Shown piece by piece: positions 1 to 2,491 of a stretch of 24,049 nt of DNA. Source of the stretch: an uncultured Candidatus Saccharibacteria bacterium (GTDB taxonomy: Bacteria > Patescibacteriota > Minisyncoccia > Portnoybacterales > GWB1-42-6); NCBI GenBank assembly GCA_964647205.1, contig CAZYIG010000001.1, forward strand, positions 1 through 24,049, in the 5' to 3' direction. Made by a program: the position numbers and the translations under genes. The stretch's first letter is position 1; each line of letters starts with the position of its first letter. The notes below the pieces were generated by a model. It saw only the letters and a program-made list of their open reading frames with translations, was not told the origin of the DNA and did not search any database.

Positions 1-1419
1 ATTCATGTTGATGAATACCAAGATACCAATCATGCCCAATATTCTTTGATCAAATTGCTGGCTGCCAAATACCGCAATCTTTTTGTCATTGGCGACGAAT
101 CGCAAAATATTTATTCTTGGCGCGGCGCCGACTTCCGCAATCTGCTAAACTTTGAAAAAGATTATCCCGAAGCCCAAGAGATACTGCTGGAACAAAACTA
201 CCGCTCAACCCAGAATATTTTAACCGCCGCCCACCAGATTATTATTAAAAATAAATTCCGCAAAGAAAAAAAACTCTGGACCGAAAATGAAGACGGTTCG
301 CCCATCACTTTGTTCGGCGCCAGCGACGAGCGGGAAGAGGGAAGTTACATTATTAACGAAATCAGACACCATAAAAAAAATAAACCATCTTTAAGATTGT
401 CTGATTTTACTATTCTCTATCGAACCAACGCCCAGTCCCGGGCGATTGAAGAAGCTTTTCTAAAAGCCGGCCTGCCCTACAAAGTGGTTGGCGGTTTAAA
501 ATTTTATGACCGAAAAGAAGTTAAGGACATGATTGCCTATATTCGGCTTATCCAAAACCCCAAAGATTCGCTGGCCATGGAAAGAATCATCAATGTGCCG
601 CCTCGCGGCTTTGGTCGAGCTAAGCTCGACTACAACCACGCTCAGCGTGGTGGCGAAGAAATAGAAATAATTGATCTAGAAAATCCAAATAAAGAATTAA
701 CACCTCAAAAAGCCCGCGCTTGGAAAAACTTTTCTGACTTGATGCAAAATCTGCGCGAATCAGCCGCTAAATTACCACTCAGCAAATTATTAAAATTAAT
801 TATTGCTAAAACTGAATACGAAAAATTTATAAAAGAGAAGGGCAAGAAAGAAGAAGGGGAGGATCGCTGGGACAATTTGAAGGAACTTTTTTCGGTGACT
901 AAAAAATATGACGTGCCCTCCGTAGCCTTGGCGGAGGAGGGTGAATCCTCCGAAGTCCCGCAAGGCGGGACGAAGGAGGGTGCGTCCTCGTCCGCTAATA
1001 CCTTAGCGCACAGAAATGCTATTCAGACTTTTCTGGAAGAAGCCTCGCTGATGTCTAATCAAGATGAAGTTGATACTGAACACAATTTGGTCAATTTAAT
1101 GACACTCCACTGCGCCAAGGGACTAGAATTCCCTGTGGTATTTATTGCTGGTTGCGAAGAAGGCATTTTCCCGCATTCGCGCAGTCTGATTGACGCCTGG
1201 CAAATGGAAGAAGAGCGCCGGCTTTGTTATGTTGGCATCACCCGCGCCAAAGAAAAACTTTATTTGATTGCGGCTCGCGCCCGCCAGCTTTTTGGCTCCA
1301 CCATAGTTAATCCGCCTTCCCGATTTTTAGACGATATCCCACCTCACTTGATTGAATATATTAACTTTGGCAATGATAAAGATAATTTGGATGAAGATGG
1401 GATTGAGAGACCATTCTAA
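1..1419 (+). CDS. pcrA: ATP-dependent SF1A DNA helicase PcrA/UvrD, 5'-truncated by the window edge
   Basis: Frame +1 is open from base 1 (IHVDEYQDTN, Walker B). Further motifs: VIGDESQNIYSWRGA, LEQNYRST, ILYRTNAQSR, LMTLHCAKGLEFPVVF, EEERRLCYVGITRAKE. The ORF-track start at 46 is internal. Confidence 0.97.
   Translation: MHVDEYQDTNHAQYSLIKLLAAKYRNLFVIGDESQNIYSWRGADFRNLLNFEKDYPEAQEILLEQNYRSTQNILTAAHQIIIKNKFRKEKKLWTENEDGSPITLFGASDEREEGSYIINEIRHHKKNKPSLRLSDFTILYRTNAQSRAIEEAFLKAGLPYKVVGGLKFYDRKEVKDMIAYIRLIQNPKDSLAMERIINVPPRGFGRAKLDYNHAQRGGEEIEIIDLENPNKELTPQKARAWKNFSDLMQNLRESAAKLPLSKLLKLIIAKTEYEKFIKEKGKKEEGEDRWDNLKELFSVTKKYDVPSVALAEEGESSEVPQGGTKEGASSSANTLAHRNAIQTFLEEASLMSNQDEVDTEHNLVNLMTLHCAKGLEFPVVFIAGCEEGIFPHSRSLIDAWQMEEERRLCYVGITRAKEKLYLIAARARQLFGSTIVNPPSRFLDDIPPHLIEYINFGNDKDNLDEDGIERPF
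612..651. repeat. Two tandem 7-bp-stem/3-nt-loop hairpins inside pcrA
   Basis: GTCGAGC-TAA-GCTCGAC (614-630) and ACCACGC-TCA-GCGTGGT (635-651). They encode GRAKLDYNHAQRG. Confidence 0.7.
912..941 (+). repeat. In-frame REP-like palindromic element, GNA-bulge family, 30 nt
   Basis: CGTG-CCCTCC-GTA-GCC-TT-GGC-GGA-GGAGGG; perfect 6-bp outer stem. Confidence 0.85.
942..980 (+). repeat. In-frame REP-like palindromic element, GNA-bulge family, 39 nt
   Basis: TGAA-TCCTCC-GAA-GTCCCGC-AAG-GCGGGAC-GAA-GGAGGG; perfect 7-bp inner stem. Confidence 0.85.
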
Positions 1420-1524
1420 AAAGTTTAAAGTTAAAAAATCAAAGTTCAAAATGACAATGCAAAATTCAAAATTTTAAATTTTTAACTGTCATTTTCCATT
1501 TTGAGATTTACACTTTACATTAAC
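1420..1524. repeat. Intergenic heptamer (AAA[AG]TT[CT]-like) array in inverted arrangement
   Basis: Units AAAGTTT, AAAGTTA, AAAAATC, AAAGTTC, AAAATGA ... AAAATTC, AAAATTT, followed by complementary units ATTTTCC, ATTTTGA, GATTTAC, ACTTTAC. Perfect core inverted repeat AAAATGACA (1448-1456) / TGTCATTTT (1487-1495). Confidence 0.7.
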
Positions 1525-1531
1525 TATCATC

Positions 1532-2491
1532 ATGTCTTATAAAAAAAACCCCCGACAAGAATCAGATAAAAATAACATCCGTCCCAACAAGCTCCTCGGT
1601 CAGCATTTTTTGCATGATAAAAATGTTCTGGCTAAAATTATCGGAGCAGCTAATTTAACTAGAAATGACACCATTCTAGAAGTTGGGCCCGGACTGGGTA
1701 TTTTAACGCGAGAGCTGGCCAAGTATGCCGGCCAAGTAATCGCTGTTGAAAAAGATAGAGCGCTGGCCGAAATTTTAACTAAAAAACTAGCCGATGAGCA
1801 AATTGATAATGTGAAAATTATTGCTGATGATGTTCTAAAATTTCTAAAAACTAAAAACTATCAACCATCAGCTGGGTACAAAGTAGTCGCGAACATTCCG
1901 TATTATTTGACTTCTCATCTCATCCGTCTTTTACTGGAGTTGTCCAATCCGCCCCAAGATATTATCTTGCTGATTCAAAAAGAAGTAGCCAAGCGTATTT
2001 GCGCTTGCCCTCCGAAGCTCGAAGAGCGAAGGGGGGCCAAACCCCTCCACCTTCGCCAAGGCTCCGGCGGACAAGCAAGAATGTCGCTCTTGGCTATTTC
2101 CGTCCAATTTTATGCCGAGGCAAAAATAATTGCTTCAGTTTCCCGGAAATCCTTTCGCCCAGAACCCAAAGTTGATTCGGCGATAATAAGGATAACTCCT
2201 AAAATTCTTCCCCCTTTGCAAAGGGGGATTGAGGGGGATTTAAAAAACACGGGGAAAATCCTCCCTAACCCTCCTTTTACAAAGGAGGGAATCGCTAATT
2301 TTTTCACTCTTCTTCACGCCGGCTTTAGTCATCCCCGCAAACAGCTTCTTGGAAACTTAAGCCAAGGGCTAAAAATTGAAAAAGAGAGGATTGGCGCCGC
2401 CCTAGCTAAGGTAGGAATAAAAAATAGCCAGCGAGCGGAAACGCTGACCGTGGAGAATTGGCTAGAATTATCTAAAAACTTAAATCTTTAA
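1532..2491 (+). CDS. rsmA: 16S rRNA m6,2A dimethyltransferase RsmA/KsgA with palindrome-derived insertions
   Basis: LGQHFL, ILEVGPGLG (motif I), VIAVEKD, VVANIPY (motif IV), QKEVAKR, FRPEPKVDSA, C-terminal RAETLTVENW. Confidence 0.97.
   Translation: MSYKKNPRQESDKNNIRPNKLLGQHFLHDKNVLAKIIGAANLTRNDTILEVGPGLGILTRELAKYAGQVIAVEKDRALAEILTKKLADEQIDNVKIIADDVLKFLKTKNYQPSAGYKVVANIPYYLTSHLIRLLLELSNPPQDIILLIQKEVAKRICACPPKLEERRGAKPLHLRQGSGGQARMSLLAISVQFYAEAKIIASVSRKSFRPEPKVDSAIIRITPKILPPLQRGIEGDLKNTGKILPNPPFTKEGIANFFTLLHAGFSHPRKQLLGNLSQGLKIEKERIGAALAKVGIKNSQRAETLTVENWLELSKNLNL
2004..2036 (+). repeat. In-frame REP-like palindromic element, GNA-bulge family, 33 nt
   Basis: CTTG-CCCTCC-GAA-GCTC-GAA-GAGC-GAA-GGGGGG. 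Confidence 0.9.
2046..2075 (-). repeat. In-frame REP-like palindromic element, GNA-bulge family, 30 nt, inverted
   Basis: Reverse complement reads CTTG-TCCGCC-GGA-GCC-TT-GGC-GAA-GGTGGA; same inner GCC-TT-GGC hairpin as 912-941. Confidence 0.9.
2208..2291. repeat. REPIN-like inverted doublet of CCCCCTTT..AAAGGGGG palindromes, 84 nt, in frame
   Basis: Perfect 20-bp palindrome TCCCCCTTTGCAAAGGGGGA (2209-2228) plus TTGAGGGGGATTT, a 14-nt spacer, then an inverted diverged copy AAATCCTCCCTAACCCTCCTTTTACAAAGGAGGGA (2256-2290). Confidence 0.85.

What the first reader, a model, noticed from the sequence alone, without database searches (positions are those of the whole stretch)
912..2075. Shared structural code: symmetric GNA/GNA internal loops make these elements strand-asymmetric hairpins
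Seen: all four copies have a symmetric 3x3 purine loop (GTA/GGA, GAA/GAA, GAA/GAA, GGA/GAA), and one has a c-GAA-g triloop. Established: tandem GNA/GNA loops form sheared G.A pairs in DNA and RNA, and c(GNA)g triloops are unusually stable DNA mini-hairpins. The complementary strand (TNC/TNC loops) cannot form these pairs, so only one strand folds fully. Inference: this is a recognition signal for a single-strand-specific protein (HUH transposase, or a host factor acting on mRNA or lagging-strand DNA), separate from the peptide encoded.
Basis: partly seen in the sequence, partly recalled or inferred. Interest (0 to 1): 0.65.

Follow-up and report, generated by a model that had tools for sequence, protein, structure and literature searches.

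The report
Tiny purine-loop DNA hairpin, pan-bacterial
The four GC-rich inserts in the helicase and rRNA-methylase genes are copies of a roughly 34-base DNA hairpin whose mismatched G..A loops recur almost letter for letter in bacteria of many phyla and in their viruses, so it looks like one of the smallest selfish DNA elements known; what reads or moves it has not been identified.

Summary
Observation confirmed. Four hairpins (914-943, 945-981 and 2007-2037 on +; 2046-2071 on -) carry symmetric 3x3 loops G-N-A / G-R-A. Shuffles of the window give no such matches.

They are not local oddities. The 18-nt core CCGNAGC-YTTR-GCGRAGG occurs about 14-17 times in this 0.87-Mb genome. It is in 13 of 15 family relatives and 120 of 401 genomes of the phylum. 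It is also in at least 120 species of many other phyla (in frame in a Bradyrhizobium uvrD) and at least 119 viral contigs.

Stems covary while the G and A of the loops stay. With the triplets left free, 55% are GNA/GNA and none is closed to Watson-Crick pairs.

Strand asymmetry is real but modest. The GNA strand folds better, and purine-purine mismatches, G.T wobbles, the bulged T and a 5' CYTG leader all sit on it.

An mRNA role is not supported, because copies lie in both orientations and at least five reading frames. HUH/RAYT linkage is not supported either: this genome's RAYT genes carry a different hairpin and co-occurrence is weak. A new lead is a recurrent tRNA - hairpin - mini GIY-YIG nuclease module.

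The scan has noted in-frame hairpin families in Patescibacteria many times before. This sequence family was not found in earlier notes or in the papers searched.

The parts
912..943 (+). Copy 1 (class 1). Leader ..TG, outer stem CCCTCC/GGAGGG, loop GTA/GGA, inner stem GC(C)/(G)GC, apical TT. In frame in the helicase gene.
   Evidence: it is row L089 of alignment A1
945..981 (+). Copy 2 (class 2). Outer stem (AT)CCTCC/GGAGG(GT), loop GAA/GAA, 7-bp inner stem GTCCCGC/GCGGGAC. A related copy sits at the same helicase loop in relative G012.
2004..2037 (+). Copy 3 (class 2). Leader CTTG, outer stem with one G.T wobble, loop GAA/GAA, inner stem GCTC/GAGC with a c-GAA-g triloop. In frame in rsmA.
2046..2075 (-). 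Copy 4 (class 1), inverted. Leader CTTG (2072-2075, read on -), outer stem TCCGCC/GGTGGA with a G.T wobble, loop GGA/GAA. With copy 3 it forms a REPIN-like inverted doublet.
   Evidence: (I2)
1..1419 (+). Host gene: C-terminal part of a UvrD/PcrA-type helicase. The loop after the TKKYD motif is a hot spot that holds different hairpins in different relatives.
1532..2491 (+). Host gene: rRNA adenine dimethylase (RsmA/KsgA). Relatives carry different in-frame hairpin inserts at the same three loop positions, or none.

Best explanation
The four inserts are copies of a small, gene-less, strand-asymmetric DNA hairpin module.

Anatomy: a 5' CYTG leader, a 6-bp outer stem YCCKCC/GGMGGR (often with a bulged T in the 5' arm), and a symmetric 3x3 loop G-N-A / G-R-A. 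Inside the loop sits either a 3-bp inner stem capped by a TT or TC dinucleotide loop (class 1) or a longer, interchangeable inner hairpin (class 2).

Behaviour: it acts as a non-autonomous selfish repeat. It is dispersed at 1-25 copies per genome, shared across phyla and viruses, and tolerated in frame in surface loops of housekeeping proteins in either orientation.

Proposed mechanism: the hairpin has to form on one DNA strand, the GNA strand. The purine loop, the leader and the apical loop together are what a structure-specific, single-strand-acting enzyme reads. The peptide is a by-product. The enzyme is not identified. By genomic association the best candidate is the multi-copy mini GIY-YIG nuclease family (tRNA - hairpin - GIY-YIG modules). 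By architecture alone a Y1 HUH enzyme remains possible.

Shown here: the anatomy, covariation, conservation of the loop, strand asymmetry, distribution and contexts.
Inferred: mobility as single-stranded DNA, protein recognition of the loop, and the identity of the enzyme.
For: Family and spread:
- The core is found 14-17 times in the own genome and in 13/15 family genomes, against 0 for the control pattern.
- It is in 120/401 phylum genomes, against 1 for the control.
- It is in at least 120 species of many phyla. There, 97 of 121 hits carry the matching outer stem and nearly all the same leader, where chance would give about 4%.
- It is in at least 119 viral contigs, 70 of 129 hits with the outer stem.

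Structure under selection:
- The loop-closing pair is U-A in 41 copies and C-G in 36.
- The outer pair is U-A 44 / G-C 20. No shuffle of 500 reaches the observed covariation.
- Copies at orthologous sites in different genera keep the pairing through double changes.

Loop conserved:
- With the triplets left free, 42 of 76 viral hits are GNA/GNA and none has complementary triplets.
- In the family, about 43% of 190 relaxed hits are GNA/GRA, against 0.2% expected.

Asymmetry:
- The GNA strand folds better in 69-71 of 83 copies.
- G.T versus A.C is 57 v 11 over six outer positions and 18 v 4 over the first four. The bulge is on the 5' arm in 37 copies and on the 3' arm in 1.
- Purine-purine versus pyrimidine-pyrimidine mismatches are 20 v 3 (viral) and 13 v 3 (genomes); a conserved leader exists on the 5' side only.

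Not a peptide: both orientations and at least 5 frames are used.

GIY-YIG link:
- 5 of 7 mini GIY-YIG genes in 120 element loci start within 100 nt downstream of the element, each behind a tRNA (p about 6e-5).
- 4 of 72 family copies show the same arrangement.

Precedent for a mismatch bulge as a strand-specific recognition feature: PMC3479197.
Against: - No insertion or excision event was caught. Metagenome contigs gave no clean element-less joints.
- Element counts do not track GIY-YIG counts across the family (rho 0.22). About 90% of copies are not near any nuclease gene.
- The G.T over A.C excess is strong only in the Patescibacteria family set. It is weak in the pan-bacterial set (13 v 4) and absent in the viral set (8 v 7).
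- A second subfamily (ATA/GAC loops, about 12%) would pair better on the other strand.
- Copies are related by descent, so the counts overstate independence.
- Conservation of hairpins at orthologous sites across genera would also fit a host function.
Confidence: 0.5

Rival explanations
1. REP/REPIN-like element mobilised by a Y1 HUH transposase (RAYT or IS200-type TnpA). The enzyme would read the hairpin, its mismatch loop and the 5' leader on single-stranded DNA.
For: The architecture matches point for point. There is an imperfect hairpin with a central mismatch that includes A.G, a TT/TC dinucleotide apical loop next to a T-A or C-G pair, and a conserved tetranucleotide 5' of the foot (PMC3479197; 10.1101/2024.12.22.630000). 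Four Y1_Tnp genes exist in this genome. Four of five high-copy genomes have one. The rsmA insert is an inverted doublet.
Against: Each RAYT-like gene here is flanked, and internally hit, by its own hairpin with a GTC(G/A)GAC apex, not by the GNA element. Y1 was not found in G008 (100% complete, 7 copies), G013 or G003. Presence of Y1 versus the element is 12/19 against 4/12, p = 0.15. Only 1 of 239 element loci has a RAYT-like gene within a few kb. The leader is CYTG, not GTAG or CGTC. Copies are few, and many lie inside genes.
Confidence: 0.15
2. No reader protein. The hairpins arise and spread by replication template switching or fold-back copying and by microhomology with CCNCC...GGNGG (Pro-Pro-Gly-coding) sites. 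The G..A loop is simply inherited from a successful founder, and is kept because an imperfect palindrome is less prone to cruciform cutting.
For: Empty sites in relatives already resemble the element's arms...GCCCGCCGGAA... in rsmA and ...CTGCCGCCAGGAG... in the helicase. In tRNA-adjacent copies the distal arm is complementary to the tRNA's own discriminator/CCA, and sometimes to acceptor bases. No transposase travels with the element. Earlier scan notes proposed back-to-front copying of the flank.
Against: An 18-nt core held almost letter-perfect across phyla and viruses, a one-sided conserved leader, and the complete absence of closed (complementary) triplets are hard to get without sequence-specific recognition. 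Two different tRNAs in different genomes carry the identical 5' arm plus leader (L021, L065), which argues that the element brings both arms.
Confidence: 0.2
3. RNA-level cis element. It would be a 3'-end or stabiliser hairpin behind tRNAs and genes, or a hairpin that masks the ribosome-binding site. The 3' arm GAAGGAGG is a Shine-Dalgarno sequence and the 5' arm CCUCC is an anti-SD mimic.
For: Ten family copies abut tRNA 3' ends. In four non-Patescibacteria loci the GNA strand is the sense strand 10-63 nt upstream of a GIY-YIG start, and in L289 AGGAGGA lies 5 nt before the ATG. The RNA-parameter energy difference between the strands is larger than the DNA one.
Against: Inside genes the element lies sense (16) and antisense (23). 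Next to tRNAs in the Patescibacteria family the transcript would carry the weaker pyrimidine-loop strand in 10 of 10 cases. The outer stem is SD-like in only about half of the copies. There is no Rfam match and no U-tract after the hairpin. No RNA data exist for this organism.
Confidence: 0.1
4. Single-strand DNA initiation signal (a primase or primosome site, or a hairpin promoter), of the kind that G-N-A mini-hairpins form in phage G4/ssiA origins and N4 early promoters.
For: GNA-type mini-hairpins are documented at such sites (PMC13037366). The element occurs in many viral contigs. There is a weak tendency for the GNA strand to lie on the C-rich strand (17 of 23).
Against: Copies sit inside coding regions at arbitrary places, and numbers vary from 0 to 24 between related genomes. 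The core lacks the closed GCGNAGC heptamer. The orientation trend is not significant once the excess of open antisense frames is allowed for.
Confidence: 0.03

Closest known systems
REP / BIME / REPIN elements with RAYT (TnpA-REP) (PMC3479197, PMC3337134, PMC3733652)
   Same: A 30-40-nt GC-rich imperfect hairpin. It has a central mismatch needed for strand-specific recognition, a TT apical loop, a conserved tetranucleotide at the 5' foot, inverted doublets and clusters with other hairpins.
   Different: The leader is CYTG, not GTAG or CGTC. There are only 1-25 copies per genome, and many are inside genes and in frame. The resident RAYT genes carry another hairpin. The same core is shared across phyla and viruses, whereas REP families are lineage-specific.
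Rickettsia palindromic elements (RPE; summarised in PMC10969869)
   Same: Palindromic repeats inserted in frame into unrelated housekeeping genes and read through as extra loops.
   Different: RPEs are about 100-150 bp, restricted to Rickettsia and encode a conserved peptide. This element is about 34 nt, pan-bacterial and read in at least five frames.
Small dispersed repeats (SDR) of heterocyst-forming cyanobacteria (Elhai et al. 2008; my own knowledge and earlier scan notes, paper not held in the library)
   Same: Very small (about 21-27 nt) palindromic modules that nest in one another, occur inside and outside genes, and are shared between genomes.
   Different: Sequence relation was not tested. 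SDRs are described for one cyanobacterial group, and no conserved purine internal loop is known to me.
Subterminal hairpins of IS200/IS605 (IS608, ISDra2) (10.1101/2024.12.22.630000)
   Same: A T-A pair next to a TT or TC (never CT) dinucleotide apical loop, an extrahelical T, and a guide tetranucleotide 5' of the foot. They are read as single-stranded DNA.
   Different: There are no left and right end pairs, no cargo, and no TnpA or TnpB nearby.
G-N-A mini-hairpin and sheared G.A motifs of DNA (PMC13037366, PMC3201870, PMC6061790)
   Same: Copy 3 has a c-GAA-g triloop. The loop strands read C-G-N-A-G on both sides, the sequence context in which sheared G.A pairs form.
   Different: Here the triplets face each other across an internal loop. 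The closed GCGNAGC heptamer is absent from the core. No physical structure has been measured.

Membership tests
REP/REPIN-RAYT | 20-40-nt imperfect palindrome with an internal mismatch | tested here: met
   Hairpin with covarying stems and a conserved 3x3 mismatch loop.
REP/REPIN-RAYT | Conserved GTAG or CGTC tag at one end of the hairpin | tested here: not met
   The conserved 5' leader is C-Y-T-G. GTAG occurs only inside the loop of GTA variants.
REP/REPIN-RAYT | A cognate RAYT gene flanked by the repeat in inverted orientation | tested here: not met
   The RAYT-like genes on contigs C3, C55 and C81 are flanked by hairpins with a GTC(G/A)GAC apex. Only 1 of 239 element loci has a RAYT-like gene nearby.
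REP/REPIN-RAYT | Extragenic location, usually more than 100 copies per genome | tested here: not met
   There are 1-25 copies per genome. Roughly two thirds lie in open frames.
Rickettsia palindromic elements | In-frame insertion in unrelated protein-coding genes | tested here: met
   Helicase and rsmA here, many other genes in relatives, and uvrD of a Bradyrhizobium.
Rickettsia palindromic elements | About 100-150 bp element encoding a conserved peptide, restricted to Rickettsia | tested here: not met
   About 34 nt, read in at least 5 frames and orientations, found in many phyla.
IS200/IS605 ends or derived PATE | Hairpin with a TT/TC dinucleotide loop and a closing T-A pair | tested here: met
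   Four-base apex in 87 copies: TTTA 38, CTTG 32, CTCG 4, TTCA 3. No C-T apical loop was seen.
IS200/IS605 ends or derived PATE | Left and right ends bracketing a unit, with TnpA or TnpB in the genome neighbourhood | tested here: not met
   No recurrent neighbour gene other than phage structural genes. No Y1 gene nearby.
Mini-hairpin DNA GCGNAGC | G-C, C-G and a sheared G.A closing a one-base loop | tested here: inconclusive
   Copy 3 has GCTC-GAA-GAGC. The core has GCGAAGG without the closing C. The structure cannot be measured with these tools.
Any curated RNA family (Rfam 15) | Match to a covariance model | tested here: not met
   No hit on the elements at E up to 1.
Small dispersed repeats (cyanobacteria) | Sequence identity to SDR1-8 | not tested

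The most novel reading that the evidence does not exclude
A roughly 34-nt hairpin with an 18-nt core, held almost letter-perfect across bacterial phyla and their viruses, is an active mobile unit. Its G-N-A/G-R-A loop, CYTG leader and TT cap form the recognition code of a structure-specific single-strand nuclease. The leading candidate is the multi-copy mini GIY-YIG nuclease that sits behind tRNA genes with the hairpin at its 5' edge. That would make a two-part selfish system (nuclease cassette plus solo hairpins) that seeds extra loops into essential proteins.
Probability: 0.2. Interest if true: 0.85.

Novelty: new variant of a known kind. Interest (0 to 1): 0.62.

Why it matters
If the reading holds, a piece of DNA barely longer than a PCR primer spreads between phyla and phages. 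It survives inside essential genes such as uvrD/pcrA and rsmA, and it is defined by a structural code on one strand rather than by any gene.

That would bear on three things. First, how small a mobile element can be. Second, where the many unexplained loop insertions in proteins of ultra-small bacteria come from. Third, what the abundant mini GIY-YIG genes next to tRNAs do.

In practice, the core pattern is a ready marker. It can be used to mask spurious low-complexity peptides in metagenome proteins and to find insertion hot spots.

Tried and rejected
- Rfam on the whole window: no relevant family.
- RNA evidence: only groundwater and soil DNA runs hold the sequence.
- Laying four runs on the window gave depth spikes over the repeats but no clean element-less joint. 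The 911-to-1183 joint comes from a diverged relative.
- Y1/RAYT link: tested by flanks, by co-occurrence and by tblastn around 239 element loci. All three were negative or weak.
- Recurrent neighbour genes around 239 loci: only clusters of related phage genes.
- GIY-YIG copy number against element number in 16 genomes: no correlation.
- Replichore and transcription orientation: 6 sense / 10 antisense / 5 intergenic in the own genome. By GC skew, 11 v 4 here and 6 v 2 in G008 contig 1. This is a trend only.
- A target-site-duplication reading of the two CGNAG words was considered and dropped, because the 5' and 3' triplets have systematically different middle bases.
- Exact insertion borders could not be fixed, because empty sites already resemble the element arms.
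- The core sequence was not found in the searchable literature.
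Full report
WHAT IS THERE. The window is contig C1 of a 0.87-Mb, 40%-GC, 147-contig genome of the ultra-small-bacteria type. Positions 1-1419 encode the C-terminal part of a UvrD/PcrA helicase. Positions 1532-2491 encode an RsmA/KsgA rRNA dimethylase. Both genes carry GC-rich in-frame inserts.

- 914-943: loop GTA/GGA.
- 945-981: loop GAA/GAA.
- 2007-2037: loop GAA/GAA, with a c-GAA-g triloop.
- 2046-2071: loop GGA/GAA, read on the minus strand.

Each of the two defining patterns matches twice in the window and never in 100 shuffles.

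A FAMILY, NOT FOUR ODDITIES. A structural scan of the whole genome puts GAA/GAA among the three commonest 3x3 loops of GC-rich hairpins, behind one other family read on its two strands. It also reveals a repeat with the core CCGNAGC-YTTR-GCGRAGG. The exact core matches 14 places in the own genome and a slightly looser pattern gives about 17 real copies.

The core is found in:
- 13 of 15 genomes of the same taxonomic family, with the control pattern at 0;
- 120 of 401 sampled genomes of the phylum, with the control at 1;
- at least 120 species genomes from Verrucomicrobiota, Acidobacteriota, Alphaproteobacteria, Bacteroidota, Planctomycetota, Elusimicrobiota and many Patescibacteria lineages;
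- at least 119 viral contigs.

The pan-bacterial and viral hits are not chance. In the genomes, 97 of 121 hits have at least 4 matching outer-stem pairs, as do 70 of 129 viral hits, where about 4% is expected. Nearly all also carry the same 5' leader.

In Bradyrhizobium frederickii the element lies in frame, antisense, inside an 886-aa uvrD-type gene. In-frame carriage is therefore not peculiar to ultra-small bacteria.

ANATOMY. The consensus, from 324 copies, has five parts:
- a leader C-Y-T-G;
- an outer stem YCCKCC / GGMGGR;
- a loop G-N-A / G-R-A;
- an inner stem G-C, C-G plus a covarying third pair;
- an apical TT (sometimes TC).

In the family set a T is bulged from the 5' arm in about 40% of copies. 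Class 2 (window copies 2 and 3) keeps the outer stem and the GAA/GAA loop but holds other inner hairpins. The module can also nest inside another shell, ATTCT-GA...GA-AGAAT, which carries a tandem G.A loop.

IS THE HAIRPIN REAL? On 87 copies the loop-closing pair is U-A 41 / C-G 36 / other 8. The first free outer pair is U-A 44 / G-C 20 / wobble 10 / C-G 2. No shuffle of 500 reaches the observed covariation, and slid registers fall to about 40-50% paired. Eight groups of copies at orthologous sites in different genera keep the pairing. Four of them do so through double compensatory changes, for example G-C to A-T, or CTTG to TTTA.

IS THE GNA LOOP CONSERVED? My first searches fixed the G and A, so I repeated them with free triplets.
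- In the family, 190 hits against 9 for the control; about 81 of the 190 are GNA/GRA, which is 43% against 0.2% expected.
- In viral contigs, an independent set, 76 hits have a paired outer stem. Of these, 42 are GNA/GNA, 9 are ATA/GAC and 4 are ATA/GAA. None has complementary triplets.

In a pooled viral count (which also includes the loci found by the fixed-G/A scan) the inner A.G opposition is almost invariant (94 of 103). The outer opposition there is G.A, or less often A.C. The middle base is free.

STRAND ASYMMETRY. Both strands are predicted to form the same hairpin, so 'only one strand folds' is too strong. The GNA strand is nevertheless more stable in 69 of 83 copies with DNA parameters (mean difference 0.7 kcal/mol) and in 71 of 83 with RNA parameters (mean 2.0). 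For the four window copies the difference is 0.1-2.4 (DNA) and 2.4-7.1 (RNA) kcal/mol.

Some features are independent of the loop. With a strand-symmetric choice of register, the outer stem of the family set shows G.T 57 against A.C 11 (18 against 4 in the first four pairs). The bulge is on the 5' arm in 37 copies and on the 3' arm in 1.

In the other sets, purine-purine against pyrimidine-pyrimidine mismatches are 20 v 3 (viral) and 13 v 3 (genomes). G.T against A.C is 8 v 7 and 13 v 4. The leader exists on one side only.

Cytosine deamination on the exposed G-rich strand would predict the opposite wobble bias for the commonest orientation. Selection on the GNA strand is therefore the simpler reading. 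Two caveats apply: copies share descent, and the ATA/GAC subfamily would pair better on the other strand.

ORIENTATION.
- Own genome: 6 sense, 10 antisense, 5 intergenic.
- 87 copies, judged by open frames: 16 sense only, 23 antisense only, 17 ambiguous, 23 with no open frame, and 8 next to tRNAs (10 by eye and ARAGORN). Antisense offers slightly more stop-free frames, so this split is not a bias.
- By local GC skew the GNA strand lies on the C-rich strand in 11 of 15 clear cases here, and in 6 of 8 on a 377-kb single-replichore contig of relative G008. Together that is 17 of 23, p = 0.03 uncorrected. It is a trend opposite to the lagging-template rule of IS200/IS605.
- The ten tRNA-adjacent family copies all have the tRNA on the other strand and abut the discriminator/CCA. 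In Alphaproteobacteria and Bacteroidota the element behind a tRNA is in the sense orientation.

No RNA data exist for this organism.

WHO READS IT? The architecture is that of hairpins read by Y1 HUH enzymes. E. coli TnpA-REP needs the A.G/C.A mismatch bulge, contacts a TT loop and a 5' tetranucleotide, and rejects the inverted REP (PMC3479197). IS608 and ISDra2 hairpins have a T-A pair beside a TT or TC loop, never CT (10.1101/2024.12.22.630000).

The genomic tests do not back this up.
- The four Y1 genes of this genome are each flanked, and hit internally, by another hairpin with a GTC(G/A)GAC apex. That hairpin has its own dispersed doublets.
- Y1 genes were not found in G008 (100% complete, 7 copies), G013 or G003.
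- Presence of Y1 is 12/19 in element-bearing genomes against 4/12 in element-free genomes, p = 0.15.
- Only 1 of 239 element loci has a RAYT-like gene within a few kb.

A different association did appear, prompted by earlier scan notes on other palindromes. In three of ten tRNA-adjacent family loci the next gene is a 90-130-aa GIY-YIG nuclease (PF01541, E = 2.7e-15). Across 120 pan-bacterial element loci (0.83 Mb) there are 7 such genes. Five of them start 10-100 nt downstream of the element, each behind a tRNA (p about 6e-5 against random placement).

In L289 the 3' arm AGGAGGA lies 5 nt before the ATG. In G008 a GTA/AAA variant sits 7 nt before the GTG start.

These mini nucleases are present at 5-14 copies in most family genomes, often right after tRNAs. 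In one case a duplicated tRNA 3' end lies behind the cassette. Their number does not track the element number (rho 0.22), and most element copies are solo. The link is therefore a lead, not a demonstration.

INSERTION SITES. The helicase loop after TKKYD and three loops of RsmA hold different hairpins, or none, in different relatives. One of them is a GTCAGAC-type hairpin in G014. The same element family sits at the same RsmA site in a different reading frame in another genus, which shows that it is selected as nucleic acid.

Empty sites (...GCCCGCCGGAA......CTGCCGCCAGGAG...) already resemble the element's arms. Borders therefore cannot be fixed, and microhomology-guided copying stays possible. 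The idea that the distal arm is copied from the flank fits several tRNA-adjacent copies. It is contradicted by two different tRNAs that carry the identical arm plus leader.

VERDICT. The loop is a conserved, one-strand feature separate from the peptide, and a structure-specific single-strand reader is the most economical explanation. The mRNA and lagging-template versions are not supported, and the HUH version lacks any genomic link.

The kind of element (a REP-, RPE- or SDR-like small dispersed hairpin) is known. The scan has repeatedly noted in-frame hairpins in Patescibacteria and tiny pan-bacterial palindromes next to mini nucleases. This sequence family, with its purine-loop signature and its breadth, was not found in earlier notes by sequence or in the searchable literature.

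Noticed in passing
G000 contigs C3:2760-3500 (L013 1290-2041), C55:161-950 (L014), C81 (L015 1240-2946): Three lineages of RAYT-like Y1 genes (225-237 aa). Each has its own hairpin with a GTC(G/A)GAC apex upstream, downstream in inverted orientation, and also inside its own reading frame at the same protein position. Dispersed inverted doublets of the same type (REPIN-like) lie on C11, C12, C66 and C95. The C81 gene is tandemly duplicated.
   Followed up: partly
G000 C2:19118-19336, C110:1642-1884, C17:9221-9481, C108, C109, C25, C4, C40; relatives: Mini GIY-YIG nuclease genes (about 85-130 aa) occur at 5-14 copies in most of these 0.6-0.9-Mb family genomes (2 GIY-YIG matches in G001 and 1, a 376-aa open frame, in G005), typically directly downstream of tRNA genes. 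On C2 the cassette is followed by a second copy of the tRNA 3' end, as at integration sites of mobile elements.
   Followed up: partly
window 2209-2290: A second, unrelated hairpin family (perfect CCCCCTTTGCAAAGGGGG-type stems plus a GGGGGATTT tail) forms another in-frame insert of rsmA. Relatives G002, G003 and G004 carry versions at the same site. Metagenome contig depth rises up to about 200-fold here.
   Followed up: partly
window 1404-1537: The AT-rich intergenic inverted repeat between the helicase gene and rsmA (46-nt arms) attracts contigs at 30-930x depth in four groundwater runs, against a baseline of 4-5x. A related AT-rich repeat is therefore very abundant in the community.
   Followed up: no
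G000 C19:9002-9033, C19:7646-7671, C43:6906-6930, C44:4503-4598, C80:4263-4287, C85:3324-3348, C2:15504-15582: About ten copies of a hairpin ATYCT-GA-[covarying GC stem]-GA-AGRAT with a tandem G.A 2x2 loop. One shares the inner stem GTCCCGC/GCGGGAC with window copy 2. In relative G012 it encloses a class-1 element.
   Followed up: no
G000 C10:4181-4208, C19:30-57, C25:5063-5090, C47:557-584, C63:5622-5649 and others: A 28-nt hairpin family CACCCT-N-CGGGT-GRTC-ACCCG-N-AGGGTG with a single G.A (or, on the other strand, T.C) mismatch. It is another strand-asymmetric repeat.
   Followed up: no
L291:4980-5040 (Bradyrhizobium frederickii scaffold_2): The same hairpin lies in frame (antisense) in a uvrD-type helicase gene, inside a larger GC-rich insert between helicase motifs II and III. 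The helicase is thus hit in a distant phylum as well.
   Followed up: partly
G014 contigs C34, C43, C44, C60, C82, C108 (L058-L070): Six to seven near-identical copies of a composite repeat of about 95 nt: two CCTC...GAGG-type hairpins followed by the GNA element and the tail GTGAGTTAA. This suggests a recent burst of a mosaic unit. A similar unit is present in another genus (G009).
   Followed up: partly
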